Shown: piece after piece, positions 14,318-39,953 of the stretch
Position numbering within the stretch: the first letter of the stretch is position 1
Layout: each line of letters starts with the position of its first letter
DNA from: Candidatus Freyarchaeum deiterrae
Lineage (GTDB): Archaea > Asgardarchaeota > Jordiarchaeia > Jordiarchaeales > Jordiarchaeaceae
Direction of reading: 5' to 3'
Length of the DNA stretch: 64,000 nt
NCBI GenBank assembly: GCA_037305845.1
Contig: CP147778.1
Coordinates: 1,792,001-1,856,000 of the forward strand
Made by a program: the position numbers and the translations under genes
The notes under the pieces: generated by a model
The model's input: only the letters and a program-made list of their open reading frames with translations
Databases searched by the model: none
What the model was told of the DNA's origin: nothing

Positions 14318-14375
<58 letters not shown>

Positions 14376-14424: not shown

Positions 14425-14494
<70 letters not shown>

Positions 14495-14500
14495 AACCTG

Positions 14501-17662: not shown

Positions 17663-18227
17663 GACCAATTCTCCTATACAAGCGGGTCTGGTTCAAAACT
17701 TGTTTCATCCGAAGCGTTAAAACTATTTTTCCTGAGGTCTGTAACCGCTTCCCGATTCAACACCTTTAAGAAAGAGCTTTTATCCGAAATATAATAAATC
17801 TTCCGATTTTTCATACCACTCTCAAATCTTACATAAATGAGAGCAGGGAAGACCTTCACACACGCCCAAAACCTGTTTGAACTTTTCCAATTAGGCTCTC
17901 TTCAGTCTCTGCAAGTGCCAAACTCTTTCGAAAAATTCAGGCTCAAAAGAGATCTGCCCTCCTATAAACCAAAAAGTTTATAATAAAGATAAACGGAAAA
18001 AGTACAAGCGCGTCGACAGGGGATAAAAGGTACACTAAATATCACACCATGTGCCGTAAGGCACACAAACCAACTCAAATTAACTTAACTCGGTTCGTAA
18101 AGAACTGCTTGAATAAATGAATAAATGCGAGGAGCTTATTTGAGGAGGCTGGATGGGTAGTGAGCGTACCCGGGTTTGGAGGATATCGAGTTAACAATCG
18201 TGGGAGGATGCTACCATAGGGGCCATC

Positions 18228-21200
18228 ATGTGCGTATTCCTGATCGCACTCTTCATAGGTGCGGACGCCCAGCAGATGCAAGCGGTCCAACAGCAGATAG
18301 ACGACATCCTCCACTACGTGAACATGCCCGATATACAGCAGGCGGAAAGAGACGGAAACATCACCCACTCTCTCAACATTTTCTTCCAAGGACAAGCAAT
18401 AGGACTATACGAAGGAGGATGGCCCTGGGGACACGGCTACGAAGCCGACGTGTGGGATTCCGACTATGAAAAGACCAACCCTGGCCACGTCTACGTCTAT
18501 AATAACACCAAGAATATAGGAGGCCGAAGAACCCTCTACTTCGAAATAATAAGTTACCCATACTACGACATAAACAGCCTCCCCGACGGCTTGGTGCGCG
18601 AACTGTGCGGTAACTACACAGACCCCCTAGCCAAACCTGAACCGCTGGTAATCTACTGCCAGTACGATGATGAGAAGGTTCCCTGGGCTGGCGACAAAAC
18701 CTCGCTCTCCACGTTTCTGGGAAGAATGCTTCTACTCTCCAAGCTCAGGCACATAGACTACAGCAGCCCCATAGACCTAGCGGAGCAGTGGTCCAATTAT
18801 CTGGATAGGTATCAGTTCGACTTCAACGATCTGGACTACATATATCGGAACTTTCCTCTGGTATTGCAGAATCCCTGGTTATGGCTCCAAAGCGGCTCCA
18901 GCCTGAACAGTTTAATGGAGCTTGTAGGCTCCGGTGTAAAGCTGAGTGATTTCAGCTTCGTGAGCGGCGATAACCCGCTATTCAATTTTCTGAACTCCGT
19001 TTGGGGGGCGGAGGAGTACCACTCCCTCTGGGAGGCGGCTTTTAACCAAACCAACGCCTGGCAGCTAGTACGCTACAACGATACCTTTGTACCTCTGCCA
19101 TACTTGGTAACCTACACCCACATCTTGGACGAGATGGGTGTTCTCGACCTGTTTGGCGAATCGGGCTCCGAACTCTACGGCGCGTATAATAATTGGGGCC
19201 TCAATCTGAACGGTTCCAACTCTTTGTATAGTTACGAGTTCATCCTGAGCAGTATCTTTGATTCACGGGCGGAAAGCCTTCTAATTGATAGCTGTAGCAA
19301 CGCCTCAATGTGGAACGCAACCGGGGAGAACGCTACCCTATCCACAGACGGCTACAGCGTAACAGTAAGCGTTATGGGCAACCACTCAAACACCACCACC
19401 CTCAGCCACAATTTAGCTCAGCCCGTAGACCTCTCCCCTTATGACAGCTTGCTTCTGTGGTTCAATATGATTAACGCCACTAGAAGCAACTTCGCAACCC
19501 TCAAGATTACTCTGTATGATGGGGAGGGAGACTGGAGGGAATACTCCACCTGGGCTTACGATACCTCTGACAGGTGGGAGAGAATAACACTGGACTTGGA
19601 TGAACCTGACCTTCAGAGTGGAAGCTTCGGCTCCCTGACCAATATCACTATTACCGCCACCCTCAACCAAATCCTCAATTACAGCCTCTCAATTGATGAT
19701 GTTCGCGTCAATTCTCATATATTGGGTGAGTGCCTCTGGGACACAGATTGGTCGCATCAACTGGTTAATGGGACTGGAGACCTCAACATCGCGGTTTACG
19801 GCTTCCCCTACGTTTACGACTACTATCCATACAGCCTCGGTCTCGAGTGGAACTTGTCCAGTTCAAACGGCTCCGCCGCTTACGTTTATGATCCTCAAGG
19901 GGTCTGGAGCCTTGATTCCCAGAGCTTCCTAACCTTCATGCTCTACGGCTTTGGGACCGAGGATCAGAACGCCAGCCTCAAGGTACGCCTGTGCATCGAT
20001 GAAAACAACTCTCTGGACTACTCTCTGGGAAAGGTGGACTGGTACGGTTGGAGAAAAGTAGTCATCCCCCTAAGCCTGATGAATGAGACTGGAAACGAGA
20101 ATCTCTCCAGCGTGGACTACCTCAAATTTGAACTCGGCGAAATGAGTAACGGCACAGGAATGCTGGTTGTGAGCGATGCGGAATTGGACTCCGCTCAATG
20201 GGCTAAGGTGGAGTTCGTGGTTCCTGATACGGTGCGCGATGCGGACGGTGACAACCACCCCAGCATAAGTCTGGACTGCTGGAATGGAGCAGAGTGGGTT
20301 ACAGTGGGGCAGTGGGATGCGGACGATTCAAACAGCACTATAGCACAAGAAACACTGTGGGGCAATCTAACATATCTGGACGGCACCCCTTCGAGTGACC
20401 TCTTCTCAGGTCAGAGTCTATGCTTGTATCCTGTGGGCACTGGATCTCAGAATCCCTACTCAGGTTTTGCTGGAGACATAAACTATACTACGGCGGAGGA
20501 CTCTGCGGGCTTTGCTGTACTGCTGCCTTCTCCCTCTCAAGAAAACCTGAGCAGTGTCCTGTTCAGGGTGGAGGTGTGCTTTGATGACTCAAACTATTAT
20601 GTTAACACTCGGGATTATCCGCTCGCCTTCTTTTACTTTAACTCCTCTTTCACCAACATGAGCCTGAAGGCTAACGATACTGAAATGGCCGAGCATGAAC
20701 TGTTTTACGGTAACGGTTCCACGGTTCTCTTCCTCGACTTGGAGGCCGCTCTGGATAACGTGAACCTCAAGGAGTTTCGAGCAGACGCTGGAAATGTAAC
20801 CCTAACCTCAGCCTTTTTCAGTTGTTTGGATGATTGGACGGTGGACAGCCTGAACTCCACCGTTTTTGTGGCGGGTGGTGAGGAGGAAGGAGGAGTCTTC
20901 GTTCAGGGCTCGGAACACCTCTATCTAAACTACACCTTCTCACCCGAACTCAGCATAAGCTATGATAATGCTTATGTTGATGTGGTTTACTCCAGCTCCT
21001 ACAGCAGCAGTAGTGAGCAAAACCAGACGAACCTCGCCCTTTGGGTAAGGGTTGATGATAACTGGCTGAATTACAGCCTGCCCAACGACGCGGAATCCAA
21101 GAGGATTCGAATCCCACTCAACGGCACCCACATGGAAGAAATATGCTTTGAGCACACTACAAATAATACTACTACCGACTGGTTCAAAGTTGAATCCCTA

Positions 21201-24200
21201 GAAGTTTTCTACCTCACCAACATCACACAATATTTACAGACTGCTCTAGGCTATATGAATGAAACCAGTTTGACGGCACCCGGATACAATCCCCGATTCA
21301 CTCAGACACTGAACACGACAGAGCTTCCCACGAGTTTGTCCGCGTGGGCATATGTGAACGGAAGCAGCTCGCTCACCGTAGAGTTCTTTGATGAGAATGG
21401 AGCCTTCCTAAAATCGGATACGGTGTGCAGCGGGGGTTCCAACTGGTATCCGGTCTGCCTAGTGGACTTGACTCAGCCTGCGAACGCATCAACTCTGAAG
21501 TTTATAGTGGCAGCGGATAAACTGGATCATGCTTACCTCTGTCCCTCAATCTTGACCAGCAGTGGAATATATGAAAGCTTCAACAGCCTTGAGGGCTGGA
21601 CTGCTTTAGGCAACGGGACAGCGGAGAATAACAGTCAGGGATTAACGGTAACACTGAACAACGGGACTCTGACCCTGTGGACTGATGTATCGGAGCTGGG
21701 ATTCGACTTTTCAAGTTTCGACACCATAGCCGCCGCATATAACATAAGCGGCGACGTGAAGGCGAACATAGTTTTCGACTGGCTTCTTGTGGATGCGGAC
21801 GGAAACCAAGCGGAGTATCAGTCTTACGTGAATCTGTCCCGAGATTCAGCTTGCGCTATTGACCCTATATCCCAGTATTATAAGATTTATGCTCCAATTT
21901 CCTTCCCATTTGAGGATTGTGTGGAGAACTTCTCTTACACGAATTTTGACTTGAACCGAATCATGCTCAACTTCTCGGGAACCGGTCAGGCTAACGTATC
22001 CTGGGTTCAGACCCTGTATATTCCCGATTGGTACTTCATATCGGTAACCGAGAATATAACATCAACCCACCTATACGTGAACTGGCTCACCAAATCCCTA
22101 GTGTTCGGCGGCGTTTTTAACAGCAGTGCGGGTGAGCCGAACTGGGTGGGGCTTATGCACACTTTCTCAGAGGATGTGAACCTCACAACTAATCCAGTAT
22201 TGGAAGTGAATTTCCGAACCCAGAACACCAGCCTCAAGCTGGGCTTAGAAGTCTTGGTTTATGATGAGCTGGGCTTTCAGTGGGTATGGGCGAAGCTACC
22301 CGCCTCAGAAGTTATCTTCGAGCACCCCATATACACACCAACCTTCGTGAACATTCCCGATTACCTTCGGTCGAACAACGGACGTCTGTACACATCCCTC
22401 CGAGCCATCCGACTGTACGTGAATGATACAACTGGTAACTATTCCGGACTGGGAAGCATGGAGATATCAAGCATTTGGCTACACCCCGCCTGCGGCGCTC
22501 CCCTGTCTTTCTTGGTATTGGATGATTTCGAGGCCGATGACCTTTCCCGGTGGCAGGAAGAGGCGGGCTGGCTTCTCCCCTACACCGACCTCAACCAGTG
22601 GAGCAGCAACCAGATAATCTGCGGCGGAAACATAGCGTATGGTCCCCCTGGTTGGGAGGACGACAGCTTTCAGACCGGCTGGTACAGCGGGTACAACTAC
22701 TCCTCAAACGGTGACGTCCTGACTTGGACCCCCTCCAACTACCCGTTAAACGTCTACAACATCACCGGCGGTAGCTCAGACGCCGAGGTCGAGTTAAGCA
22801 CGTATCTCAATACTCGGTGGTTCCGCCCCGGGGACACTCAGATGAGGCTGGGCCGCGAGGACACGACCTGTTGGGTCTACGTACCTCCCTATGCTTATCC
22901 TGTTACTGTATATGTTTACAAGCGAACCTTCGTCCGGTTTCCGCTCTACATCCCCGAGAACGCTATCATAACCAACGCTTGGATAAGCCTCAAGTCTAAG
23001 ACCAACGAAACCAATAGCATTCCCTGCGCCGTAAACCTGCTGGACTCCGGCAACTTTCCAGAATTCACAGACGACCCCTGGAATTGGCCGACCTCTGGTG
23101 GCGCTGTGGGTTGGACTGCGCCGAGTACCATTGCGGATTGCTGGTACAATACTTCAAACATTTCCACATTGGTTCAACGTTTCATAAACACGACGGGATA
23201 CTACCCCGGTAAATACGTGGGATTCAGACTTATGGACAACGATACCATAGGTGCCTGGAAGACTTGGTATACCTACGAGAGTGACCCGCAGAATGCCCCC
23301 AAGCTCTACGTGTCCTATACCGTTCCGGGGAACTACTACATTTCGAAGGCTGTAAATGTGGATGTCGGCGAGTATCCCTGCCTCGTTTTCAGAGCGAAGT
23401 GTAACGTGGACAACAGCACGATACATCTGGCTCTAGGAACTCCTGAGGATCGTTACTATTTTAAAACTTACTTCGAACTCAATCAGTCCTACCGAACCTT
23501 CGCTATTCCCATATCCAACGGCTTCAACGCCACCAGCATCACGATCTTTTATCCAGACTTTCAAAACGTGAAAGTGGACATAGACTATCTAGGACTGCTA
23601 AGGTCGGTGAGTCTCGAGGGCACGGTAATGAACAGCTCCCTCTCGGTGAACGGTGGATTTGAAAACGGCGACTTCTATAACTGGACCCTGTCGCAGTGCT
23701 ACGGGTGCACAGTTGAATCCCCTGAGTTGGTTGCTGAGGGGGTTCATGCTGGGAATATTACCTGCAATGGTGTTGGTCAGTGGCTTTCACGCACCGTGTC
23801 TGGTGATAACATAGTCAAGTTCTCAATCTACAAGCCGAGTAGCTTTAACGCAAGTAACAGATACTTCTTCCAACTATACGATGCAGACCCGTGGGGCTCA
23901 GGGAAAAAGATAACTTTCTACTTGGTGGACTCCTTTGATACAAATATGAGTGAATATGGAGACAGTAAAAACAAGGCTCTCAAATGGTCTCAGAAGAATG
24001 GAACCTATAAAGACTACTACATAGACCCCCACGCCCTGTATAATCTATACTGGAATAATACTGACCCCACACAGATTGAGGTTCGGTTCGGTGTGGAGGC
24101 AAACCAGTCATCGAACATGGTTATCGACGGCTTCGGGGTCTGGGACCGCGGTTCAGGTTTGGCACCAAATAATATTGCGATTTATCCAAGCATGCCTTTG

Positions 24201-27200
24201 GATAATCATGATTCTCTGAAGCTTTTGTACTCATTTCCCAGTGAGAGCACCGATGTCTGCACTTACACCTTCACCATAGATAGGGACTTCAGTCAAGAGA
24301 AGTACTTCTCCCTCTGGGTTTACCAAGACCAGTACAATAAGAAGTGGAACCACACGCTGGACATTTGCCTGCGCTGCAAGGACGGTAGCTTCGGCGGCTG
24401 GAACATGACCATGAACTGGTCGCAGGATTTGAAGAGGCTGGTTCTCCCACTGGACAATTTCACGTACGAGTCTGGATCAGTGGTTTCTGGGCAGTTGGAA
24501 AAAATAGTAGTCAGTTTGAAAGACCAGTACGGTTACGTCAAGGAGGACGGCTGGATTCTATTAAGCGGTCTGCTTTTCGGACACCAGTACAATTTCACTC
24601 TCACCAGTGAGAGCTATAGCGGAAGCGGAGCGGTGAGAATACAGAATCCGAGTGGAGGCTGGGTAAAAATATTTGCGTCGGGTAACGAAACGGGTACTAT
24701 TCCCTTCACGCCCGATGAGCTTCTCTGCTTCGCGGCTAAGCCTAAGGGTGACACTCCCTGGGCGGTCATGGTGGATTTAGCTCTAAAGGATGGGAGCACC
24801 GCAACCCTCGTCTGGTACCGCGGCAGTCGTCCCATTCCCTCAGAGTATCCTTACGATTACTTAACACAGATTGACTCTAACCCCGACAACTGGAACGAGT
24901 ACCGCCTGAACCTGTTCGACGCCGTAAAGAACTACGCCGAGCAGATGGGCAGGGGCGGCTTCCAGCGCATAGAGAAGATTGCGTTTCTAGTGGGCCCAGG
25001 GGAGGTGGTTTTCGACAGCGTTCTCGTGAGGAATGTTCCTGAGAACCTAGATACCAGCCCCTTAAGCGTCTTAAGCAGCCCTGTGATATTCTTCTACGAC
25101 GAGGCTTATCCCTGTAGTTGCGGCGCGGGAGGGAATGACTGGAGTTTGGTTAACGAGACCCTTACCACGCTTGAAGCAGGTTTAAAGAGCATGAACATCA
25201 GTGTGGTTTGGGCTGATGCTCAGGAAGTGAGGAAACTTGTAAGCACTTATCCCCGAAGCGTCCTTGTAATCGTAGGTAGTATTGTGCCCGATACCCTCTG
25301 CGGTAGGGAGGGTTATTCGGTTCTTGAAAACTTCGTGGAGCGTGGAGGCACGGTACTCTTTCTCAGTGATGATTACGCTCCCGTAAGCGCTGTAGGGCGG
25401 GAGGGATACGAAACACTCTGGTTCCAAGGTATGGGGCTGGAGTATCTTTTGGACGCTAAGTCTCCGACCATAGAGCTATTCAACTATTCAAGTTTGAAGC
25501 CTCTGAGCATAACCATGGATCCTACAGAGATGGGGGGCGGTCTCGGAGCTTTAAACGGTTTGAACACTTCGGGTTTCGCGTGGCTCATCCCCTACCTCCG
25601 TTATCAAAACCTGTGGGTTGAAACCTACTACTACAACAGTTCAGAACAGTTGGGGCGTGGAGTATGTGTGCGTCCTCAAGACTCGTTGGGCTACGTGGCG
25701 GAGTTCCCTCTGTCAATGGTTTCGGATGGTAACGATACCGGTGTGGTTGTGAAGTTTGTATCCGACCACTTTATCGATTTGTGGCTGGACACGTCTGGTT
25801 CTAACTTCGATGACTATGAGAGGCCTTTACCGGGGGTCTCCGATGAAAAGTTTATGGACTACTATGGAGAGATGAAGGCAGGAAACTGGAGCTTCTCAAC
25901 TGATATACCGGAGGAGGAATACTACGCTTCCGCAGAGTTCCAAGCCTTCTGGCACGTTTACCTGAACGCCTCCCTGAGTTCCGAGAGAAACGACTCCATA
26001 ACCGCCACCTATACGGTTAGCCCGAACAGCACCATTCTTCTATCGGAGTTCCCGTTCTTCACCGCAACGGTTCTCACTATAGGAAACTATACTAGGCTCA
26101 AGTTGGAGGCGGAAGTTTCGGGGCAATACTACACCCTTTTTGACGATAATGCGTCTGATTGGCGCAAGTACGTCTGGTATCTTCCCAATATTTGCGCGGA
26201 GGACGAATTTCAGGGTATGCGGGTAACTTTGTACGAGAACGATACCTGCGGTACGGGTAATGCGAGCGTCACGCTCACCAACTTAGGCGCTTACACTGTA
26301 GCCGTGCCTGAATACGGTTTCCCAAAATCCCTGAATGTGAACTTCCAGAACTCCTCTGTTTATGATTACCTGTTCTCAGGGGACAGTGATTATCCCTTCA
26401 TGGGCTTCAAGTTTAACGACACTCAGAACAGCGTTTACACTATAACCCGAGAATATCCCCACCCCTTCAGTTTCTTGGAATACCCCTACTTGGAGTTCGC
26501 CTCATCGGGCAGCGAGGGAAACTACACGGTGGAGCTGTGGCTTCAGAAGAAGTGTGGCGAGCAGAGCTACGCTTGGTACCTGCTTGACTGTTTCAACGGC
26601 TCCGATTCAGGCTCCTCACAAATGGTTATGGGATACAACCTCTACGCTAAATTCAATGCTTACTACGAACAATTCAAGAGTATAACTGCCGACCTGAAGG
26701 GCTGGAAATTAATTGTGAGGGGCAACGCCTCGCAGAACTCCTCAAAGAACTGCCTCTTCACACTAAAATACATCGCCCTCACCGATTATTACACCGGTTG
26801 GAGAATATACCCCGGTGGAATGGACTACACTGGTGGGCAAGGTTACGGTGATGGAGGAGAAATCGTCCTGAGCTTGGAGCAAGAATTAGGAGCATCAGAT
26901 AGCAGCATAAGCTCGAAGGAGAATATCGGTCTCAGTCCAAACGTCAGCTCGGTGGGTGATAGTAGCAGTTCAGGGCAGGATTCCCCTACCGTATCTGAGA
27001 GTGTCAAACCCTCCGAAGTGGATGTTTCCGAAATAGTCTCAAAGGAGGACTACTGCCTGAGCCCCAGCGCCTGGTGCGTATATAACAGCAGCGGGGGAGT
27101 CGAAGCCAAAATAGTGTCTGGCGAGTTCATTGAACTCCGGATGAGGCGGGCAATCGCCGATGACTGGGCGATGTTCAGATACGATCTGGGTGAGGGTGTT

Positions 27201-33200: not shown

Positions 33201-36200
33201 TGGGATAAAGCGGGCAATATTGGAACCGTTTATTCCACGTTTGGCATTATTCCATACTCTGATAAATATTCTCTTCATTTTCAAGGATCAGATAATTATT
33301 ATTATGGATGTGCTTCATTTGCTGCTTACGTTCAAATGATTCAACAAGAAATTGAGAGCGCGCACCTGCGGGGAAACGGAACCAGTCAGGGGGGCTCTGC
33401 CCGAGGTGTAGACGAGTCTGGTTCCGAGCTGGTCTTCAATGGACTTGCCCCTATGGGTGTTTCCGAGAAGAGTGCTTCTAGTTTTGGCCTCTTTTCTAGT
33501 GATTATGATGTTTGTGGAGGAACTGGTGAGGGTGGTAATGAAAGTGGTGGAGAACCTCTTGAGAACCCAGTTACCGTGGAGCAGGCTTTGAATTACGAGT
33601 TCTCCGAGGATGTCTCTTTCCTTCCCTGGATGAAGATGTCGTTCCGAGTCTTTGGGTCTCCTCGGGATATTAGTTTGAACGTGAAGTTCGGTGTTGCTCC
33701 GTATATTCGATTGTTCTTTGATCCGTTGAGCTTTGAGCAGTATGGAAGCAAGGAGGACAGTGCGCTTCTACGCTCTACTCCTGACACTTGGAACACTTTC
33801 ACGATACCCTTGTACCGCATGGCTAAGGAGCTGGGCTTGTTTAATGGTTTTAACGCTCCTACTAACATCAGCACGATTAGTGTTAGTGCTTATGGTGAGC
33901 GTAAGACTTGGGAGAGTTGGGCGATTTTCGATAACTTCTGGGTGGCGACGCCGGTTCCTCTGGTTGAGGATTACGCGGAAAAGGCGGCTCTCTCCCGCGA
34001 CAACTACTACAAGATTCTCAACGTTACTAAGGAGAGTAATTTTGAGCTTTTGAAGCAGGACATTTCTGAGATTTTTGCGGCGAGCTACATGGGTGACTTT
34101 GAGTACTTGGCGGAGGTTCTGGGGATTTTCACTCAGCACCTGTTTCCATCGGGCGAGATGGCGGAGTTCACGGACGCCTCTGTCCGAGTCATAAGCTATA
34201 ATAACAGTTTGAATGAAAGCGTGCCCCTGTTCGTGTTATACAGCTTCCCAGGAGGTTTGGAGAACGTTTCCTTCTTAGCCGCCTATAACTATACTAATAT
34301 TCCGAATTTGGATCTTTCGCGAGAGGCGGTACTTAACGCTAACCTCACGCAATTGTGTCAACTGCTGGCTCGGGGCGGAGGTGTGCTTACGCCTTATGGT
34401 TTAAGTGACCAAGATTTGGCGTATCTGCCGTATGGTACGGCGAGCTTCGTTATAATTAATGATACGGTTTGTATTGACCGTTTGAGCGCCAAGCCGTGCA
34501 CCATCCAGAGCGTGCTGGCTACCATTGCCAGTATTGCGGAGAGGGTGTGGAATCACAAGTGTGTGGCTCAGGTTGTGGAGCAGGAGGAGGAGGCTCAGGA
34601 GATTGGGTCTCTGAGAGCGTTCATTAACGAGGAGGCTTATCGGGTTGATACGTTCAATAAGTTGCTGGCGGCTTTGCAGTGGGTTAACTACATGCACCCG
34701 TATAACTGGGACAAGAAGAGCTTTGATGTTCTCCTCGACCCTGTTAATAGCCCTTACTGGCTCTCCTACACTTATGCGGCTTGGGGTAACGAGACTGGGT
34801 ATGAGCGGCTGAGCGAGTGTCTGGCTAATATTACTCAGATGCTGGATTTTGGCGATTACTTCGGAGCTCCGCCGGTGTTCATCACTTCTGGTGAGTATAA
34901 CCGTACCGCGGGTGCGGCGGGGGAGAAATGTGTGCTTATCTATAAGGCTCTAGAGAGGGATGCAAGCTGGAATTATCTATTGGGTGCGGTTCAGGGTGAG
35001 ATTTTGTGTGCTATATTTAATGACACTGATGTTTTGAATGTGGCTAGGGAGTTCGGGAGGCGGGTGAACTCCACACTGGCGGATGTTTACGTTTACCTCG
35101 CGGAAATGGCTTTCATGTATACCAGACCCTACAACACAGAGGATATACTCGGTAGTCCTGTTTCTGAAAATATACAAGCATTGTTCAGCGGGTCTCTTGG
35201 AGGAGTCGAACAGATTCTCAGTAACATAGGGGAGTTTGCTGATAACCTTACTATGCTTCCCTTCCTTAATCTTAAGAATACATTGGACATTATGTTCATG
35301 CAAAAACTCAACAAACAATTGGCAATTTTGGGCGTGGGTATGGGTTTGGGACCAACGGGGTTTAAAGACGTCATAGATAGGTTAGGGGATGAAGAAACAT
35401 CTAAGGCAAGTTCGGTTTACTCTTCAGAAGAAGACTATATTATAGACCCTGAGTTACTTTCAGTTTCTTGCCCACTAATTCCAATGCCTTCGGAATCATT
35501 TCTCTATGAAAGCTCAGAATCACACTGGAGATCGGTAATAGATAATCCGTATACCAATTTTCTATTACCTGATATGGTGGAATACGCTAAGAAAGTGAAT
35601 GTGAATCTTCCAGAGGGACAGAAGAAGGGAATAATCAGCCCTATAATAAATACGGCTTTACAAACTTTTGGATTGGAGAGTGGGTCGATAGGCTCAGTTA
35701 TGCTTAGACTATTTGCAGCAGGACGATGGCCTGTGGGCCAACCCCTTAAAATATTCATTGACCAGAAAATTGCGGACTATATGAATTTACCTAAAACGAC
35801 CGACCTAAAAGTAGCTGACTACTGGTTTGAGAAGCTAATCGACGCTTCGCCTTGGTACTTGGATTTGACAACAGGCTTACTCGAGATGCTGGATGATTAT
35901 GAGAACCCGGCGGGTACAGTATACTGGGGAGTTGATGTTTTTAGCTCAATTCTTGTTCCTGCAGGGAGTGGTGGAGCGTTTCTCAAAGTTAGTGTTTCCA
36001 TCAAGAACGATCCTGGTACTTGCAACGGGAGATTAGCGTATCTAAGCATGAGAGATGGTGAGGGGAAATTGATTCTTAGTAACGAGAGGCTGGTATCGAT
36101 GGGATGGGGGATACTGAAAAACCACGACCTGCCCGACGGCGACGGTGTAGGGCAGCTCTGGCATAATGATAATGTTGAACTGTTTATTGATAGAAATACT

Positions 36201-39200
36201 GGGAGGATAACGAAGTACATGGTTCAAGATATGACTACTCTGAAAAACCCAGACTTGGATGAAGGCTTTGCTAATGGTCAGCGTTACGGTGCGGATAACA
36301 TGGATAGGGTGATCATTGATATACCTCAAGAAGGTGGTGAAGAGATGGTTGATTGTGATGTAACAAATCGCGAGTGGATGGGAAGCGCAAAGACTGGTTG
36401 CGGTATGACTCATATGTGCTTCGTTTTCAAAAATTTGGATAGGATTAACCCAGTTCAAACTATCTCCGGTGAAGATAAAGTATCTGGTATCCATAGATCT
36501 CTTTGGAAATCGAGAATAGCCTATGAAAAGGAGACAGGAGGATATAAAAACAGGCCGATGCAACAAGAAATTCCTGATGCCCCTGAATTTCAGTATTATC
36601 CTATTTTAAGATATTTAATACGTGATTTAGGTCTGTCATACGCTGAACCAATTTACAGAATGCGTATTGAAAATACTCCTGCATCTGATAAATCGGTACC
36701 ACAGATAAATAGTATCTTAGAATTATTTGATGTGGCTGCGCGTATGCCTCTGGATTGGGCTGTCATTAAAGATTTTGTGCACCATAACTTCATGGAACTA
36801 GAGTTGGACGTTATGACAAGTCCAGATAGAATAATTAGTGAGCGAACAAGCTATCTTTCACTGTTCCATGAGGCTCTACTAGATTACGATGGCAAGAAGG
36901 TCTTTGTTAGCCGAATTATGGATCTCCTTCTTTTATCTTACACTCATTGTCTCTTCGGAACCAGCCATGCTAACACCGAATACTTTGTTATTCCTGAGAA
37001 TACGATTAAGGAACAGCCTAAAGATGGCCTAGGAAACATAATACCTACGAGCGAGTGGGATCATAGTAAGAAATCCCTAGCAATATTCCTAGACCAAATG
37101 CCCTACCCCTCACAGCCCAAAGTTTCTCTAATAGCCATACCTGTATTCAAAGAGGGGGCGGGAATAACACAGCTTACTCCCATCGACAAGATATTTGAAC
37201 GCCAGCATAAACAGCCGAGTCCAGCTATCCCTATTGAAAATAAAGAGGAACTTGTGTATGGTAATGTGGAATATTACCTGTTATATCATTATGTTCCCAG
37301 TGACGTAGAGAATCCCTACAAACCTTACTCAAACATTGTAAATCCCAGTACAAACATTTTTGCTCCGGATGATCTAAAATTGGGAGACATGAACGAAATA
37401 ATCAAGTTCCTCAGAATCATGCAAAGGATATGTCAATTAACCGGTAGCTACGGTAGACCGGGCCAAGAGAATTACGATCGTTCCACTGCAGCGTTCCTAA
37501 AACAACTGGAGGGGTTGATGATGAATTATCAGGAGGCTGGTTTAAAAATATTCGAGGCGCTGGGTGGATTTGAGGCCATGGATAAGATGCGGGAATTTTA
37601 TCCACTCCACCCACTGACAAATACGCAACAACAAGGGCTAATCATGGTCAAGGACATGTTCAGTGACCTCTTCGATATTATAAATAGTAAGACGGCTACA
37701 GAACAAGAAAAAGCAGCTGCGCAAGGCCTTCTAAAGTCTCGTAAGGAAAGTTACCCTGAGGCTTGGGCTTTTTATGAAATTCTACCCGAAACTGATTGGA
37801 TTCCTACTGATATTAACGGTTTTATATTCCTTCTTTCAATTATAGGAGCTGAAAGAGTTGGAGGGAACATCTATATTCCAATGAAGTGGCATGAATCCAA
37901 TAACTTCTTCGCCTTCTCAACTGAGGATAAAGTAGGAGAAAATGAAAAAGGAGTGGCTACATTTAACCCCGATGAGTTTGTTGAAAAATTAAATAAATTA
38001 GGTACACCTATGAAAATTAAGCTGGTTAACGGAGAAATGGTGAGATATAAAGATGGCAGATGCCAGTTAGAGCCTTTCAAAGATGAGTTGGGCAATAAAA
38101 AAACGTTTGGTCTGCTTACCCCTGAGGAGCGTAGTCAGGTAGTTGCCATAAATCTTGAAACGAATGTTGACCCGTATCTTATTAGGAATGCTTTCGGAAA
38201 TAAGATAATGGTAAATGATAGGTTGCTGGTGGAGACTCCACAGGGTACTGACCCAATGAAGAACTGTCTTGAATGGTATAAGGCTGTTACGAAGTGTGAA
38301 TCGATTCGTACAGGAGGGCGACCTGCGGCTTTATACGCTTGTTGGAAATTTATTGCTGGAGAGTATTATGATTTAGAATTAGATATTGTAAAAGATAATC
38401 AGTTTAAACTTGAACTTCTTGATTACGCTATTGAAAAGTTCCACAAGTTGATTCCTGTAGAAATTCTTAAGATGTGGGAACTTCACACCGAATCGCATAA
38501 AGAGTTAAATGTTCTCCGCTCGGTTCTTCAGCTTTTTATTATAATTGATGCTACTGGTGCTAGTACTGAAGCTGGTGTCACACAAGATTTCGGTCAGCGA
38601 CGTGGAAGCCCTAAGGTGGATACCTTTTATATTAATCTTATAAATAAACTGACTGACGTAGTTAAGAGTGGTAATGTTTACGAGATTACGGGGCTCATCT
38701 TTACAGATGCCTTGATTTTTATGGCAAATGAACTGCAGAAGAACCCGAACACTGCATTTCAAGCCTTTATGCTTCACAATATTATCAAGTTGGGAAGCGT
38801 TGCGAGCGCTATTGAATCTCTACGACCTGAGAATGTTCTACACGGTGGGGCTATGACGCTTTGGAGTATCCAACTTTCTAAGATTATGACGGAGAAAATT
38901 GCAATGGCTTCAGAAAACCTAAAGAAATACAGTTCCGTAGAAACCGTCAAATCTCTATACGGTCAGGAACTCGTTGCTATGCTCAAGTACGAAGGATGTA
39001 ACGAAGCACAAATATCATACATCACGGGGTTCACGTTGGCAGAGGTAAACCAGTTTGTGCAGGAATGGAAGATTCGCTGTGATAAGGAAAATATAGAGGA
39101 AAGAATGGCGCAGGAAATATTTGTATCTGTGATTGATAAGGTCTGTCAGGTTGCAAACCTTAAGTTCACCGATAAGTTCAAATTCCAGTTGATAGCGGGA

Positions 39201-39953
39201 GGTAGCTTGACTCTCAACTCTCTTTACATGGCTGGAAAAAACGTGGTTCCCTTCCTCATGATATTCGCTCCTATTATGCAGGTAATCGGCTACACTGCTG
39301 TCAGCTGGTTTGAAGGTCGGTCAATCTCTCTTCTGCCCGTTTTCGGTAACGACTCTCTCTTTGGTGGGGCGGTAACCCGATGGTGCTTGGATCCCACTCA
39401 GAATATGCTCACCTCTATTCTGATGGGGTTCGCCGTGGAATTGACCGATTACATGGAGTTTGGGGCTGAGGGGAGTCCTTTCGCTGGAAAAAGCTTCGAA
39501 AAGTTGGGCAAAATCATAGACATGGACTATATTAACGTTATTTTGACTGGCTGTCAGGGTGGTATGATTAATCTTGGTTTGAGCTACGTTTCTGGGGATA
39601 CTATAGCTGACCTTATGAAGCCTCTTTTTGGTGTTGTGGGTATCGTTTCTATGATTCCTCAGGTTGATCAGTTCTACAAGACCTGCATCTGGCCCATCGC
39701 CAAATTTACACTAGGAGCCGCACTCATGGGTGGAATTAAACCTATCGTGGGGAGCGCCATCGCTAACGTGGCTGCAATTAACGCCATTAACGCTGCTGAA
39801 AATGCCTTCATGAACAGCGTGTTTGGCACAGGACTTTTTGATGACGTAACCTTTGATTTTAGCGCTTTTACTGATTATCTTCCAGGTTTCGGCTGGGGTG
39901 ACTACGATTACATTTCAAACTATATCACCCACTATATGTACGGGGTCTGGTAG
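18228..39953 (+). CDS. Giant (7241 aa) secreted/surface glycoprotein: CBM-like modules, two DNRLRE-like domains, DUF2341, Ig-like (Big) repeats and an unrelated C-terminal region with hydrophobic helices
   Basis: 21.7-kb uninterrupted ORF with a hydrophobic N terminus and dense N-x-S/T sequons. DUF2341 signature WLTGWSYRKPV...DGSDIRF...FWIE...VWIK...YYG...FFDDFSG; Ig-like P...LNVTAxD...VDxxxP units at ~31250-33250. Confidence 0.88.
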   Translation: MCVFLIALFIGADAQQMQAVQQQIDDILHYVNMPDIQQAERDGNITHSLNIFFQGQAIGLYEGGWPWGHGYEADVWDSDYEKTNPGHVYVYNNTKNIGGRRTLYFEIISYPYYDINSLPDGLVRELCGNYTDPLAKPEPLVIYCQYDDEKVPWAGDKTSLSTFLGRMLLLSKLRHIDYSSPIDLAEQWSNYLDRYQFDFNDLDYIYRNFPLVLQNPWLWLQSGSSLNSLMELVGSGVKLSDFSFVSGDNPLFNFLNSVWGAEEYHSLWEAAFNQTNAWQLVRYNDTFVPLPYLVTYTHILDEMGVLDLFGESGSELYGAYNNWGLNLNGSNSLYSYEFILSSIFDSRAESLLIDSCSNASMWNATGENATLSTDGYSVTVSVMGNHSNTTTLSHNLAQPVDLSPYDSLLLWFNMINATRSNFATLKITLYDGEGDWREYSTWAYDTSDRWERITLDLDEPDLQSGSFGSLTNITITATLNQILNYSLSIDDVRVNSHILGECLWDTDWSHQLVNGTGDLNIAVYGFPYVYDYYPYSLGLEWNLSSSNGSAAYVYDPQGVWSLDSQSFLTFMLYGFGTEDQNASLKVRLCIDENNSLDYSLGKVDWYGWRKVVIPLSLMNETGNENLSSVDYLKFELGEMSNGTGMLVVSDAELDSAQWAKVEFVVPDTVRDADGDNHPSISLDCWNGAEWVTVGQWDADDSNSTIAQETLWGNLTYLDGTPSSDLFSGQSLCLYPVGTGSQNPYSGFAGDINYTTAEDSAGFAVLLPSPSQENLSSVLFRVEVCFDDSNYYVNTRDYPLAFFYFNSSFTNMSLKANDTEMAEHELFYGNGSTVLFLDLEAALDNVNLKEFRADAGNVTLTSAFFSCLDDWTVDSLNSTVFVAGGEEEGGVFVQGSEHLYLNYTFSPELSISYDNAYVDVVYSSSYSSSSEQNQTNLALWVRVDDNWLNYSLPNDAESKRIRIPLNGTHMEEICFEHTTNNTTTDWFKVESLEVFYLTNITQYLQTALGYMNETSLTAPGYNPRFTQTLNTTELPTSLSAWAYVNGSSSLTVEFFDENGAFLKSDTVCSGGSNWYPVCLVDLTQPANASTLKFIVAADKLDHAYLCPSILTSSGIYESFNSLEGWTALGNGTAENNSQGLTVTLNNGTLTLWTDVSELGFDFSSFDTIAAAYNISGDVKANIVFDWLLVDADGNQAEYQSYVNLSRDSACAIDPISQYYKIYAPISFPFEDCVENFSYTNFDLNRIMLNFSGTGQANVSWVQTLYIPDWYFISVTENITSTHLYVNWLTKSLVFGGVFNSSAGEPNWVGLMHTFSEDVNLTTNPVLEVNFRTQNTSLKLGLEVLVYDELGFQWVWAKLPASEVIFEHPIYTPTFVNIPDYLRSNNGRLYTSLRAIRLYVNDTTGNYSGLGSMEISSIWLHPACGAPLSFLVLDDFEADDLSRWQEEAGWLLPYTDLNQWSSNQIICGGNIAYGPPGWEDDSFQTGWYSGYNYSSNGDVLTWTPSNYPLNVYNITGGSSDAEVELSTYLNTRWFRPGDTQMRLGREDTTCWVYVPPYAYPVTVYVYKRTFVRFPLYIPENAIITNAWISLKSKTNETNSIPCAVNLLDSGNFPEFTDDPWNWPTSGGAVGWTAPSTIADCWYNTSNISTLVQRFINTTGYYPGKYVGFRLMDNDTIGAWKTWYTYESDPQNAPKLYVSYTVPGNYYISKAVNVDVGEYPCLVFRAKCNVDNSTIHLALGTPEDRYYFKTYFELNQSYRTFAIPISNGFNATSITIFYPDFQNVKVDIDYLGLLRSVSLEGTVMNSSLSVNGGFENGDFYNWTLSQCYGCTVESPELVAEGVHAGNITCNGVGQWLSRTVSGDNIVKFSIYKPSSFNASNRYFFQLYDADPWGSGKKITFYLVDSFDTNMSEYGDSKNKALKWSQKNGTYKDYYIDPHALYNLYWNNTDPTQIEVRFGVEANQSSNMVIDGFGVWDRGSGLAPNNIAIYPSMPLDNHDSLKLLYSFPSESTDVCTYTFTIDRDFSQEKYFSLWVYQDQYNKKWNHTLDICLRCKDGSFGGWNMTMNWSQDLKRLVLPLDNFTYESGSVVSGQLEKIVVSLKDQYGYVKEDGWILLSGLLFGHQYNFTLTSESYSGSGAVRIQNPSGGWVKIFASGNETGTIPFTPDELLCFAAKPKGDTPWAVMVDLALKDGSTATLVWYRGSRPIPSEYPYDYLTQIDSNPDNWNEYRLNLFDAVKNYAEQMGRGGFQRIEKIAFLVGPGEVVFDSVLVRNVPENLDTSPLSVLSSPVIFFYDEAYPCSCGAGGNDWSLVNETLTTLEAGLKSMNISVVWADAQEVRKLVSTYPRSVLVIVGSIVPDTLCGREGYSVLENFVERGGTVLFLSDDYAPVSAVGREGYETLWFQGMGLEYLLDAKSPTIELFNYSSLKPLSITMDPTEMGGGLGALNGLNTSGFAWLIPYLRYQNLWVETYYYNSSEQLGRGVCVRPQDSLGYVAEFPLSMVSDGNDTGVVVKFVSDHFIDLWLDTSGSNFDDYERPLPGVSDEKFMDYYGEMKAGNWSFSTDIPEEEYYASAEFQAFWHVYLNASLSSERNDSITATYTVSPNSTILLSEFPFFTATVLTIGNYTRLKLEAEVSGQYYTLFDDNASDWRKYVWYLPNICAEDEFQGMRVTLYENDTCGTGNASVTLTNLGAYTVAVPEYGFPKSLNVNFQNSSVYDYLFSGDSDYPFMGFKFNDTQNSVYTITREYPHPFSFLEYPYLEFASSGSEGNYTVELWLQKKCGEQSYAWYLLDCFNGSDSGSSQMVMGYNLYAKFNAYYEQFKSITADLKGWKLIVRGNASQNSSKNCLFTLKYIALTDYYTGWRIYPGGMDYTGGQGYGDGGEIVLSLEQELGASDSSISSKENIGLSPNVSSVGDSSSSGQDSPTVSESVKPSEVDVSEIVSKEDYCLSPSAWCVYNSSGGVEAKIVSGEFIELRMRRAIADDWAMFRYDLGEGVNVSQTNFIDFKMRVRPEGGLRIVAYAEFSSAGGLVELGEYSADGVWISWRLDVLSLLAKAGVNNSLVTGLVFKLVCEGGSGRYDCYVDLSYLKFSGFASWRGGLSTLFYDDGVYSVFHFEGLQGATIIYSIPSDYHDFSLTFNANYLLEKTSKGVNVFFYDFTQGSWVHISTLDRMDSWENVSVGIDGNFVRGYDGRFLVYLAPIYSQDIDVNLRLDSAEVMATTSTQNYLVQSGLLTMGLDGTVDSGDSSLPTNLDHVFDHLGGEAVWFGEDYYRGGSVSDWLTGWSYRKPVRVNNSGSVDLYNFQVKLTLQGTNSSQVGYVDFGKIAPDGSDIRFTAADGLNPISFWIENWNNTNQTATVWIKCPLLGNNSVTVYYMYYGFKNAESLSNGEDTFLFFDDFSGDILNPGNWIVTGNVTVNNGVVTIGGNSIESRIESTYKYGNMTIVQCRGQVSDDWSTPTQVTRIYSVDGSASDSELWTVVVYGTYYENHYTLSSMMLGPYIYYGSPFGSLSDFVRFKLDIPVGSTITNAYISLKSTNNESSTNIQSQVWLLNYYNCPDFSGGAVAIQDMPTVGSPVYWTPTVTYQDCWCNTANISSLIQSYISMSNYQPGVCYVGLRLNDMNTQVADKSWYQYDSGAGNAPKLVVAYVPPPGEGQSSAVVSLSDYSDPDPSDVITLGQVDCYDYKGKWVGAFRDYPPINYTIVNTNWSADTNWHTFQIYWLGANSTSLWIDSNKCNISSWYVPDGDNPLRVMHEANAAQRSGTKLFVDYTFVRKYAQVEPMVSYDSEQLPPSIPPASSSSVPVDRLSGSEMVHLYWHMLENVSSIDDYYLEFRLRSDMGAVFKENVQGEANAKLDLYREFMLSLRSVIEPPVNYSPDSDYSNVNMTVRLYVQYFYANNSAIPNGTILFNETTITYLDDNNWVSYVLDVPSRAPAGASKWTPLIRAVGRPADSFCHLFIDDMKCPQTYQTSQQNTSANIAWVAGGDGHGHVLNCSSNGSGDLTIWDQILNIPFSPDLLFNFDINPISGDGWWLGLKFRVQLYEFLTSYNATLNVTSPTSYVGPVDVSLSFDNGSCYKGSLFVMEDNATHVPFTVRNQTVLGDYVSNMSISILANVSAGETKQYKIFWSDYDNPLPDLVSPNLRVVNWTDSTQGENVSVNCTATDANMSRVVLHYYDGSANCSKDLVLQSGFYVGNFSYSGSYQFWVEAFDNCSNPMRTWIYPSNLPVLNVNMSESEVYIRDSIPAGTDSVWLYYSNGAEKCLNSTENSLTYGYRLNCGEGWNRFPRLPYSDILEIFTLRYETLPTWEPMVLERIEGGGIGNSSYMLDNMRWGLYPRTVLDYSRQSAMNFYFSYDSSIPVVSIVSGHVLSGVALLNASCSDIPSQILNETIGGIEHVEYTVSNSTGVVYNSIMVKEHTGNDTYVYTDFWYDYFDSTLLPDGFYKLNVSVWDKSGNRADDLQYVIVYNSRPLVEFLNVYGNMSVGGVLKVLVRTTDVFDVTNTSLTVTNIGTGNTTVYNMREGYFQNQNVWIYNVLFNQSGTYTLSCNATDYFGVGSDMVSVDISVDTNLPNVVINSPQPNEWVGGRYLLNVTAFDDNNISSVQWRVYMIADETTGRWEIPYGYSDIWNDTTPVGGDTYTANWNTTALNVSEWQTHRYVVVFRATDNNTVPSTVYRNVTVVVDNDNPNIISGPNIVASNNVEEGFSYNEAGTVIYTKCDTASLTFAVSDFRSSLFYDIEHNWSRANLEAYLGCLNITVLDEYEDGSRLYSDYIMVEGSGSFFLEIDNYALINGTHNLTITANDLAGNMNQSIRKIDVVVDKTPPIVIPILPRNGMWLKRIISANWLLEPILNLYSWLSSLLDEGERTPSWEEGVLFGVYVDDLDSPVLTNAIWLDLSNRPGLHFTMSPDYHQYMGMFDELPEQWIIYDMFSMINKEGSEDIFSSLLAGSGYTDLGLIKFKELYGDNVFWYGAYFTPLDFFFNIWSLSCLNPTTFTCKFTAWDKAGNIGTVYSTFGIIPYSDKYSLHFQGSDNYYYGCASFAAYVQMIQQEIESAHLRGNGTSQGGSARGVDESGSELVFNGLAPMGVSEKSASSFGLFSSDYDVCGGTGEGGNESGGEPLENPVTVEQALNYEFSEDVSFLPWMKMSFRVFGSPRDISLNVKFGVAPYIRLFFDPLSFEQYGSKEDSALLRSTPDTWNTFTIPLYRMAKELGLFNGFNAPTNISTISVSAYGERKTWESWAIFDNFWVATPVPLVEDYAEKAALSRDNYYKILNVTKESNFELLKQDISEIFAASYMGDFEYLAEVLGIFTQHLFPSGEMAEFTDASVRVISYNNSLNESVPLFVLYSFPGGLENVSFLAAYNYTNIPNLDLSREAVLNANLTQLCQLLARGGGVLTPYGLSDQDLAYLPYGTASFVIINDTVCIDRLSAKPCTIQSVLATIASIAERVWNHKCVAQVVEQEEEAQEIGSLRAFINEEAYRVDTFNKLLAALQWVNYMHPYNWDKKSFDVLLDPVNSPYWLSYTYAAWGNETGYERLSECLANITQMLDFGDYFGAPPVFITSGEYNRTAGAAGEKCVLIYKALERDASWNYLLGAVQGEILCAIFNDTDVLNVAREFGRRVNSTLADVYVYLAEMAFMYTRPYNTEDILGSPVSENIQALFSGSLGGVEQILSNIGEFADNLTMLPFLNLKNTLDIMFMQKLNKQLAILGVGMGLGPTGFKDVIDRLGDEETSKASSVYSSEEDYIIDPELLSVSCPLIPMPSESFLYESSESHWRSVIDNPYTNFLLPDMVEYAKKVNVNLPEGQKKGIISPIINTALQTFGLESGSIGSVMLRLFAAGRWPVGQPLKIFIDQKIADYMNLPKTTDLKVADYWFEKLIDASPWYLDLTTGLLEMLDDYENPAGTVYWGVDVFSSILVPAGSGGAFLKVSVSIKNDPGTCNGRLAYLSMRDGEGKLILSNERLVSMGWGILKNHDLPDGDGVGQLWHNDNVELFIDRNTGRITKYMVQDMTTLKNPDLDEGFANGQRYGADNMDRVIIDIPQEGGEEMVDCDVTNREWMGSAKTGCGMTHMCFVFKNLDRINPVQTISGEDKVSGIHRSLWKSRIAYEKETGGYKNRPMQQEIPDAPEFQYYPILRYLIRDLGLSYAEPIYRMRIENTPASDKSVPQINSILELFDVAARMPLDWAVIKDFVHHNFMELELDVMTSPDRIISERTSYLSLFHEALLDYDGKKVFVSRIMDLLLLSYTHCLFGTSHANTEYFVIPENTIKEQPKDGLGNIIPTSEWDHSKKSLAIFLDQMPYPSQPKVSLIAIPVFKEGAGITQLTPIDKIFERQHKQPSPAIPIENKEELVYGNVEYYLLYHYVPSDVENPYKPYSNIVNPSTNIFAPDDLKLGDMNEIIKFLRIMQRICQLTGSYGRPGQENYDRSTAAFLKQLEGLMMNYQEAGLKIFEALGGFEAMDKMREFYPLHPLTNTQQQGLIMVKDMFSDLFDIINSKTATEQEKAAAQGLLKSRKESYPEAWAFYEILPETDWIPTDINGFIFLLSIIGAERVGGNIYIPMKWHESNNFFAFSTEDKVGENEKGVATFNPDEFVEKLNKLGTPMKIKLVNGEMVRYKDGRCQLEPFKDELGNKKTFGLLTPEERSQVVAINLETNVDPYLIRNAFGNKIMVNDRLLVETPQGTDPMKNCLEWYKAVTKCESIRTGGRPAALYACWKFIAGEYYDLELDIVKDNQFKLELLDYAIEKFHKLIPVEILKMWELHTESHKELNVLRSVLQLFIIIDATGASTEAGVTQDFGQRRGSPKVDTFYINLINKLTDVVKSGNVYEITGLIFTDALIFMANELQKNPNTAFQAFMLHNIIKLGSVASAIESLRPENVLHGGAMTLWSIQLSKIMTEKIAMASENLKKYSSVETVKSLYGQELVAMLKYEGCNEAQISYITGFTLAEVNQFVQEWKIRCDKENIEERMAQEIFVSVIDKVCQVANLKFTDKFKFQLIAGGSLTLNSLYMAGKNVVPFLMIFAPIMQVIGYTAVSWFEGRSISLLPVFGNDSLFGGAVTRWCLDPTQNMLTSILMGFAVELTDYMEFGAEGSPFAGKSFEKLGKIIDMDYINVILTGCQGGMINLGLSYVSGDTIADLMKPLFGVVGIVSMIPQVDQFYKTCIWPIAKFTLGAALMGGIKPIVGSAIANVAAINAINAAENAFMNSVFGTGLFDDVTFDFSAFTDYLPGFGWGDYDYISNYITHYMYGVW

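What the first reader, a model, noticed from the sequence alone, without database searches (positions are those of the whole stretch)
18228..39953. 7241-aa mosaic giant protein encoded inside the rRNA spacer
Seen: a sequon-rich extracellular N-terminal ~5600 aa with CBM-like, DNRLRE-like, DUF2341 and Ig-like modules. Nucleotide style changes abruptly along the gene: C/A-rich at the start, G/T-rich at ~29500-32500, and AT-richer at ~32900-33350 and from ~35100. Inference: a modular adhesin or contact apparatus assembled by recombination from several donors. It is among the largest size class of archaeal proteins.
Basis: partly seen in the sequence, partly recalled or inferred. Interest (0 to 1): 0.75.

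Follow-up and report, generated by a model that had tools for sequence, protein, structure and literature searches.

The report
Giant Asgard surface protein, swappable tail
A real 7,241-residue gene in a Freyarchaeia (Asgard) genome encodes a heavily sugar-tagged surface stalk joined to an exchangeable, sugar-free 1,400-residue tail of unknown fold that nearly always sits beside a HEAT-repeat partner gene, a layout like bacterial contact-dependent toxin/immunity loci, though no activity is shown.

Summary
The ORF (18228-39953, +, 7241 aa) is real. Independent metagenome contigs span its internal junction, and it is a called protein in the published complete Freyarchaeia genome.

It has two parts:
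- Residues 1-5677 carry 183 N-glycosylation sequons (65.7 expected), DUF2341 and Ig-like domains, and high GC3.
- Residues 5838-7241 carry one sequon (8.6 expected), ordinary GC3, and no detectable relative outside this genus.

A colinear 7,4xx-aa paralogue lies 0.9 Mb away. It shares 78-86% nucleotide identity from window 16420 up to 35147, then nothing. The same break recurs in six other giants of the genus.

The tail also occurs as stand-alone ORFs under purifying selection. A HEAT-repeat gene lies next to the tail in 10 of 11 loci, and a decayed tail relic lies downstream (41561-41802).

So the gene is a recombination mosaic, but "several donors" is not shown: high GC3 is typical of this genome's surface-glycoprotein genes, and every relative found is in the same genus.

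The gene does sit in a 30-kb expansion of the 16S-23S spacer; a congener's spacer is 2.7 kb.

Function is untested. I favour a polymorphic contact system (0.4) over an anchored adhesin (0.3).

The scan reached the same reading earlier on the paralogue (e1-5514216).

The parts
16420..35147 (+). Segment duplicated with the paralogous locus (G000:C1:2697097-2716499), 78-86% nucleotide identity. It ends abruptly inside the ORF at aa ~5640.
   Evidence: blastn of the two loci; per-window amino-acid identity
16828..17430 (+). 200-aa polytopic membrane protein, co-duplicated upstream of both giants (87% identity). No known family.
18153..18194 (+). Short in-frame upstream ORF ending in TAA-CAA. It is conserved upstream of both paralogues, and the hydrophobic core of the leader spans the annotated ATG.
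   Evidence: no stable RNA fold, so no BHB intron signal
18228..35258 (+). Ectodomain or 'stalk', aa 1-5677: acidic, 183 sequons (O/E 2.8), GC3 mostly .5-.66.
22920..23312 (+). DNRLRE-like module, copy 1 (below the family cut-off).
   Evidence: 45% identical to copy 2
28191..28439 (+). DUF2341 domain (PF10102).
   Evidence: E 2.5e-22
28704..29186 (+). DNRLRE-like module, copy 2.
31368..32660 (+). Region with three bacterial Ig-like domains: Big_3_2, Big_7 (weak) and Big_13.
35259..35318 (+). Last element conserved in all eight giants: helix motif PF[VL]NLxxTLxxxFxQKF. Sequon density switches exactly here.
35319..35738 (+). Variable linker, rich in indels and acidic or low-complexity stretches (aa 5698-5837).
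35739..39227 (+). Soluble part of the exchangeable C-terminal module (aa 5838-7000): no sequon, mixed alpha/beta, no known fold, GC3 .36-.42.
39228..39953 (+). Conserved Gly-rich, weakly hydrophobic helical C-terminal domain (aa 7001-7241). It has a recurrent sequon in the loop after its first helix (aa 7041) and the terminal motif YDYxxNYITHxxYGxW.
40071..41237 (-). Convergent 388-aa HEAT/ARM-repeat partner with no signal peptide.
41561..41802 (+). Decayed relic (in-frame TGA stops) of the tail end of a different C-terminal module. Its best match, 60%, is to the G002:C157 variant.
14509..14613 (+). 16S 3' end plus the start of the spacer. It is repeated at 42687-42791 (98%) and 44139-44203 (92%), with a 24-nt core at 41416-41439, so the repeats bracket the inserted gene block.

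Best explanation
**What it is.** This is one of two paralogous giant cell-surface proteins of a family restricted to one Freyarchaeia genus.

**Shown:**
- A 5,677-residue, acidic, heavily sequon-tagged region with Ig-like, DUF2341 and DNRLRE-like modules is fused, through a conserved helix and a variable linker, to a 1,400-residue module.
- The module almost lacks sequons, has no known fold, and ends in a conserved, weakly hydrophobic helical domain.
- The module is exchanged as a cassette together with a neighbouring HEAT-repeat gene.
- The stalk is kept similar between paralogues by recombination.

**Inferred:** the stalk is exported and N-glycosylated and serves cell-cell or cell-surface contact. 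The variable module plus its HEAT partner act as a polymorphic specificity pair, organised like bacterial polymorphic toxin/immunity systems, with the module as effector or recognition unit and the HEAT protein as its cytoplasmic binder.

I say it works like such a system. I do not say it is a member of one.
For: - **Conserved N-terminus, variable C-terminus.** Paralogue identity is 85-95% over aa 1028-5650 and 25-35% afterwards. Nucleotide similarity ends at 35147. The same break follows the same helix in eight giants.
- **Partner gene.** A HEAT gene lies next to the module in 10 of 11 loci. The genome has only about 20 such loci in 3.6 Mb.
- **Stand-alone cassettes.** G002:C157 carries a 1422-aa module ORF. 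In G001:C204 homology starts exactly at aa 5838, with stops upstream.
- **Displaced relic** of another module's tail downstream of the gene.
- **Sequons.** O/E is 2.8-5 before the helix and 0.35 or less after it in all giants. Across 11 modules, 7 were observed against 53 expected, where low-sequon ORFs of this genome give O/E 0.82.
- **Precedent.** HEAT-repeat immunity proteins are known in polymorphic toxin systems (PMC3482391).
- **The gene is real.** Contigs from three runs bridge the junction with no differences. An independent 8.5-kb contig spans aa 5076-6495 at 100% identity. dN/dS is 0.08-0.29.
Against: - All modules belong to one homologous family of 1,400 aa. Their most conserved part is the extreme C-terminus, whereas classical systems carry unrelated small toxin domains.
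- No toxin, peptidase or secretion domain was found.
- Stand-alone modules have been under purifying selection for a long time (dS 0.83, dN/dS 0.13-0.21), so they are not silent spares.
- A distant module relative (G9) has no signal peptide or TM segment and sits beside a HerA-like ATPase.
- Module identity and HEAT identity do not co-vary (rho 0.01).
- The partner's orientation varies: convergent in 6 loci, co-directional in 4.
- From ATG 18228 the N-terminal leader is weak (KD 1.46, no basic n-region), unlike the other surface giants of this genome.
- No expression data were available.
Confidence: 0.4

Rival explanations
1. It is an anchored adhesion receptor. The glycosylated ectodomain lies outside. 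The conserved junction helix and the C-terminal helical domain cross the membrane. The sequon-free 1,300 residues between them are cytoplasmic and dock the cytoplasmic HEAT/ARM-repeat protein. This would make a structural or signalling link between the outside and the cytoplasm rather than a delivered effector.
For: - Sequons stop exactly at the junction helix (last one at aa 5673). They reappear only in the loop after the first C-terminal helix, at the same aligned position in 5 of 9 modules.
- A basic residue precedes that helix and an acidic residue follows it.
- The HEAT partner, stand-alone modules and G9 all lack signal peptides.
- The C-terminal domain is the most conserved part of the module, as expected of an anchor. 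Its weak best fold matches are transporter TM bundles (Z 5-6).
Against: - The junction helix contains Asn, Thr, Ser and Gln. By a hand estimate on the Hessa scale it is about +10 kcal/mol, and the first C-terminal helix about +4.9, so neither is a convincing TM segment. KD values are 1.2-1.8, against more than 2.5 for real signal anchors in this genome.
- This reading does not explain why an anchor would be swapped as a cassette and leave relics.
- No TM predictor could be run.
Confidence: 0.3
2. It is an ordinary structural envelope or matrix glycoprotein. The conserved-N, divergent-C pattern would be a by-product of partial gene conversion between two old duplicates, and the HEAT neighbour would have an unrelated cellular role.
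For: - dS strata show that conversion tracts homogenise only parts of the gene.
- The whole gene is under purifying selection.
- High GC3 is shared with other surface glycoprotein genes.
- HEAT_PBS-type proteins are common in this genome.
Against: - HEAT adjacency in 10 of 11 loci across three genomes is far above chance.
- Stand-alone modules, a deletion variant and a displaced relic show cassette-level exchange, not just conversion.
- The break falls at the same residue in eight giants.
Confidence: 0.15
3. It is an assembly chimera or a dead gene: the two 85%-identical paralogues were mis-joined, or the ORF is not expressed as one protein.
For: - Short-read contigs are fragmented over the paralogous stalk.
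- The start codon context is odd.
- No RNA run was available.
Against: - The junction at 35147 is bridged without differences by contigs of 4187, 8440 and 1501 nt in three runs from two studies, and by an independent protein fragment.
- The frame is open for 21.7 kb with dN/dS 0.08-0.29.
- The genome was curated to completion (PMC11291895).
Confidence: 0.03

Closest known systems
Polymorphic toxin systems (CdiA/CdiI, Rhs and others; Zhang et al. 2012, PMC3482391)
   Same: A long conserved N-terminal presentation region; a sharp junction followed by a variable C-terminal region; an adjacent small partner gene (HEAT-repeat immunity proteins are recorded); stand-alone C-terminal cassettes with their partners; displaced relics downstream.
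   Different: The variable regions are all one 1,400-aa family of unknown fold, with a conserved hydrophobic end. They are not diverse small nuclease, deaminase or pore-forming domains. No haemagglutinin, RHS, VENN, peptidase or secretion-system domain is present. The partner is often convergent. Toxicity and immunity are untested. The host is an archaeon, where such systems are rare.
VARTIG modules of Thermococcales (Makarova et al. 2021, PMC8416519)
   Same: An archaeal large Ig-domain surface protein with a recombining hypervariable C-terminal part and variable downstream genes. The authors themselves compared it to polymorphic toxin systems, and its function is also unknown.
   Different: In VARTIG the variable part is itself an Ig domain and the proteins are far smaller. 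Here the variable part is a non-Ig 1,400-aa module with a constant HEAT partner. The lineages differ, and sequence homology between the two was not tested.
Giant extracellular proteins of uncultivated prokaryotes, e.g. 'Dockerin-type' giants of Omnitrophota (West-Roberts et al. preprint, 10.1101/2023.11.21.568195)
   Same: A multi-thousand-residue, mostly extracellular protein with attachment-type domains. Hydrophobic or intracellular regions occur only near the C-terminus. The gene fragments in short-read assemblies, and Asgard archaea are noted as the archaeal group richest in very large genes.
   Different: No SecA-like, peptidase or glycoside-hydrolase domains were detected. The size is smaller (7.2 kaa against more than 10-30 kaa). 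The cassette exchange with a HEAT partner is not described there.

Membership tests
Polymorphic toxin systems | [quoted passage not shown] | tested here: met
Polymorphic toxin systems | The C-terminal region is a recognisable toxin domain, and the alternatives are diverse and unrelated | tested here: not met
   No Pfam, NCBIfam, PADLOC or PDB sequence match. All modules align with each other (A1, A2).
Polymorphic toxin systems | Cognate immunity gene immediately next to the toxin-coding end | tested here: inconclusive
   A HEAT gene is adjacent in 10 of 11 loci, but its orientation varies, no co-variation was found, and immunity was not assayed.
Polymorphic toxin systems | Stand-alone C-terminal cassettes that can replace the resident one | tested here: met
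   Stand-alone modules; relic of a displaced tail.
Polymorphic toxin systems | Trafficking or processing domains (T5SS/T6SS/T7SS adaptors, RHS or FilH repeats, HINT or other peptidase) | tested here: inconclusive
   None found by HMM searches. The stalk was not folded domain by domain.
DUF2341 (PF10102) | Score above Pfam's gathering cut-off | tested here: met
   79.6 bits against 23.4
Bacterial Ig-like domains (Big_13, Big_3_2) | Score above Pfam's gathering cut-off | tested here: met
   32.5 against 27 and 25.5 against 23.3. Big_7, at 19.8 against 24.1, is not met.
DNRLRE domain (NF033679) | Score above the NCBIfam cut-off | tested here: not met
   16.7 bits against 34
VARTIG (Thermococcales) | The hypervariable part is the C-terminal Ig domain of an arCOG07710 protein | tested here: not met
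   The variable part (aa 5838-7241) has no Ig match. Homology to arCOG07710 itself was not tested.
Sorting-signal-anchored archaeal surface proteins (PGF-CTERM and the like) | Short C-terminal sorting signal recognised by NCBIfam/TIGRFAM models | tested here: not met
   No such hit. Instead the protein ends in a 240-aa conserved helical domain.

The most novel reading that the evidence does not exclude
The protein is a transmembrane adhesion receptor of an Asgard archaeon. A 5,700-residue glycosylated ectodomain would be coupled across the membrane to a 1,300-residue cytoplasmic domain that docks a HEAT/ARM-repeat adaptor. That would be an outside-to-cytoplasm link analogous in logic to cadherin-catenin, with the cytoplasmic module and adaptor exchanged as a cassette.
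Probability: 0.12. Interest if true: 0.9.

Novelty: new variant of a known kind. Interest (0 to 1): 0.6.

Why it matters
Classical polymorphic contact systems are rare in archaea, and none is described for Asgard archaea, the closest prokaryotic relatives of eukaryotes. How these cells touch partners and surfaces bears on ideas about symbiosis and eukaryogenesis.

This locus offers a concrete, lineage-specific candidate: a giant glycoprotein stalk, a new 1,400-residue module family with no relatives among 1.84 billion protein representatives, and a dedicated HEAT-repeat partner. The module/partner interaction can be tested in heterologous hosts. The cassette exchange can be tested in existing wetland long-read data.

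The locus also shows that a 16S-23S spacer can take up about 30 kb of protein-coding DNA.

Tried and rejected
- **Word-indexed homologue searches.**
  - Giant-length proteins with the tail region: no hit.
  - The tail alone: two Freyarchaeota hits only.
  - The stalk against shorter proteins: one Freyarchaeota fragment.
- **Profile search** of 1.84 billion representatives: 25 hits. The named top hits are Freyarchaeota; the rest, mostly short fragments, carry no taxonomy.
- **PDB sequence profile:** nothing meaningful.
- **ESM Atlas:** no usable hit for the tail or for aa 1-1400.
- **AlphaFold models.**
  - aa 5790-6989 (pLDDT 69.8, pTM .69) and aa 6950-7241 (pLDDT 65.7).
  - No Foldseek match at E<=1e-3 in PDB (both models) or BFVD (module model only).
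  - VIA gave only a common three-helix arrangement (Z 7.6) and weak TM-bundle rows (Z 5-6).
- **PADLOC:** only repeat-level HEAT hits.
- **BHB intron or structured RNA around the upstream TAA:** fold z-scores +0.8 and +2.2, so rejected.
- **Conserved TM segment at the junction:** the G1 segment LAILGVGMGLGPTGF is absent in the paralogue.
- **Module versus HEAT co-variation:** rho 0.01.
- **RNA evidence:** no RNA holder was listed among sequencing runs.
- **Upstream 200-aa membrane protein:** found only in this genome.
- **Foreign origin of the high-GC part:** not needed, because GC3 is high across this genome's sequon-dense genes.

Full report
**Identity and reality of the gene.**
- The window is G000:C1:1792001-1856000 of a single 3,576,204-bp contig with 40.7% GC. 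That length matches the complete Freyarchaeia genome of Valentin-Alvarado et al. 2024 (PMC11291895).
- The ORF 18228-39953 (+) is open for 7241 codons. The same 7241-aa protein is on record from NCBI.
- It is not an assembly chimera. Logan contigs of 4187, 8440 and 1501 nt from three runs in two studies cross the critical internal junction with no differences, joints or indels. An independent 8.5-kb contig encodes aa 5076-6495 at 100% identity.
- dN/dS against the paralogue is 0.08-0.29 along the whole alignable length.

**Two-part anatomy.**
- Residues 1-5677 are acidic and carry 183 N-x-S/T sequons against 65.7 expected. The remaining 1544 residues carry one against 8.6 expected.
- Pfam recognises only DUF2341 (aa 3322-3404) and Ig-like domains (aa 4381-4811). 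Two mutually similar DNRLRE-like modules score below the family cut-off. A CBM call is not significant.
- The last 2441 residues match nothing in Pfam or NCBIfam. The C-terminal parts tested also match nothing in PADLOC, PDB sequences or the ESM Atlas.

**The paralogue and the junction.**
- A second giant ORF (7429 codons stop to stop) lies at C1:2699010-2721299.
- Nucleotide similarity (78-86%) runs from window 16420, upstream of a co-duplicated 200-aa membrane-protein gene, to 35147, and then stops.
- Amino-acid identity is 85-95% for aa 1028-5650, 25-35% for aa 5680-7078, and about 50% in the last 160 residues.
- In six further giants from two other genomes of the genus, similarity to the stalk also ends just after one conserved helix (PF[VL]NLxxTLxxxFxQKF, aa 5678-5697). 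A variable, indel-rich linker follows.
- Sequon density switches at that helix in every one of them.

**The tail is an exchangeable cassette.**
- The region from aa 5838 onward also occurs as separate ORFs. Examples are a 1422-aa ORF in the middle of a 17-kb contig (G002:C157), and a 1385-aa ORF (G001:C204) whose homology to this gene begins exactly at aa 5838, with stop codons in all frames upstream.
- That copy is 86% identical in DNA, with dS 0.83 and dN/dS 0.13-0.21, so it has stayed functional.
- Downstream of the giant gene, at 41561-41802, lies a decayed relic of the last 80 residues or so of a different module. It has TGA stops and is closest (60%) to the G002:C157 variant.
- One relative (G002:C230) lacks aa 1522-4781 of the stalk.
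- The very end (about 165-240 aa) is also found fused to an unrelated N-terminal part in a 417-aa protein.

**The HEAT partner.**
- A HEAT/ARM-repeat gene lies immediately beyond the module in 10 of 11 loci with flanking sequence. This includes both giants of this genome and the distant relative G9.
- The genome holds only about 20 such loci.
- The partners lack signal peptides.
- Their pairwise identities do not track those of the modules (rho 0.01).

**Composition and 'mosaic'.**
- The style changes are real and lie at third codon positions. The largest one, at about 35150-35300, coincides with the stalk/tail junction.
- The high GC3 of the stalk is not evidence of a foreign donor. The 44 sequon-dense ORFs of this genome average GC3 .49 against .416 for the rest (P 1.6e-7).
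- Synonymous divergence between the paralogues falls into blocks: 0.33-0.48 for aa 1000-4500, 0.7 for aa 4500-5500, 0.9 and 1.76 in the first 1000 residues, and saturated in the tail. This fits repeated partial gene conversion plus replacement of the tail.
- The family is genus-restricted: 3 of 6 congeners, 0 of 295 other Asgard genomes sampled, and 25 of 1.84 billion protein representatives.

**rRNA context.**
- 16S (12896-14517) and 23S (44803-47888) are co-oriented and 30.3 kb apart.
- The 16S 3' end plus about 96 nt of spacer is repeated at 42687-42791 and 44139-44203, with a 24-nt core at 41416-41439.
- In congener G004 the two genes are 2.7 kb apart and share only the flanks with this window.
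- In G002 a module, a HEAT gene and a copy of the same repeat lie in the same order.
- The gene therefore sits in an expanded spacer. The paralogue is not near rRNA, so this position is not a feature of the family.

**Structure and topology.**
- AlphaFold gives a mixed alpha/beta multidomain core for aa 5865-6780 (pTM .69) and a helical bundle for the last 240 residues.
- No significant match appeared in PDB or BFVD.
- Topology is unresolved. For a cytoplasmic tail:
  - the sequon switch at the junction helix;
  - the recurrent sequon in the loop after the first C-terminal helix (5 of 9 modules);
  - the cytoplasmic nature of the partner and of G9.
- Against a cytoplasmic tail: neither helix is hydrophobic enough by hand estimate, and KD values are 1.2-1.8, against more than 2.5 for genuine signal anchors of other surface giants here.
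- The N-terminal leader from ATG 18228 is also weak. Its hydrophobic core extends upstream of the ATG. The paralogue has no ATG there, and both have an in-frame short ORF ending in TAA-CAA.

**Reading.**
- The shown facts fit four of the hallmarks of polymorphic toxin systems (PMC3482391). The archaeal VARTIG module (PMC8416519) is a looser analogue.
- One defining feature fails: recognisable, diverse toxin domains. I therefore describe the locus as working like such a system (0.4) and do not file it as a member.
- The main rival is an anchored receptor with a cytoplasmic module (0.3).
- An earlier follow-up on the paralogue (e1-5514216) reached the same layout independently of my tests.

Noticed in passing
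window 18153-18230 and L028:2944-3020: Both paralogues have a 12-13-codon ORF in frame with the giant ORF, ending in a conserved TAA followed by CAA. The hydrophobic leader core spans the annotated start, and the paralogue has no ATG at that place. Initiation upstream with read-through, or a non-AUG start, would give a more normal signal peptide. No RNA structure was found there.
   Followed up: partly
window 14509-14613, 41416-41439, 42687-42791, 44139-44203; L038 (G004:C44:1-12000): Direct repeats of the 16S 3' end plus the spacer start bracket about 30 kb of protein genes without an integrase. A congener has a 2.7-kb spacer of unrelated sequence between the same flanks.
   Followed up: partly
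L013 and L039 (G000:C1:1599001-1611000): G9, a 1697-aa distant relative of the tail module (22-27% over about 480 aa), has no signal peptide or TM segment. It lies in a co-directional set: a 111-aa ORF, an 829-aa HerA-like (DUF87) ATPase overlapping its start, G9, then a HEAT-repeat gene.
   Followed up: partly
L023 (G002:C230:3-7643, minus strand): A shorter giant of the same family joins stalk residues 295-1522 directly to 4781-5705, so it lacks about 3,260 residues. The 3' boundary coincides with a GC3 shift in the window gene.
   Followed up: no
P0018; G000:C1:858912-859570: A 417-aa protein from the database carries the conserved last 165 or so residues of the module behind an unrelated N-terminal part. 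A homologue of that N-terminal part, without the tail, is encoded elsewhere in this genome.
   Followed up: no
whole genome (G000): Sequon-dense (presumably surface glycoprotein) ORFs have markedly higher GC3 than other ORFs: 45% exceed 0.5, against 9% of the rest. The cause is unknown.
   Followed up: partly
L002:4492-5547 (G001:C204): The HEAT partner of the stand-alone module is only 158 aa long and is followed by a transposase-type HTH ORF. This may be a truncation by a mobile element.
   Followed up: no
window 61760-61881: Rfam calls a 122-nt tRNA that ARAGORN misses, consistent with an intron-containing archaeal tRNA.
   Followed up: no
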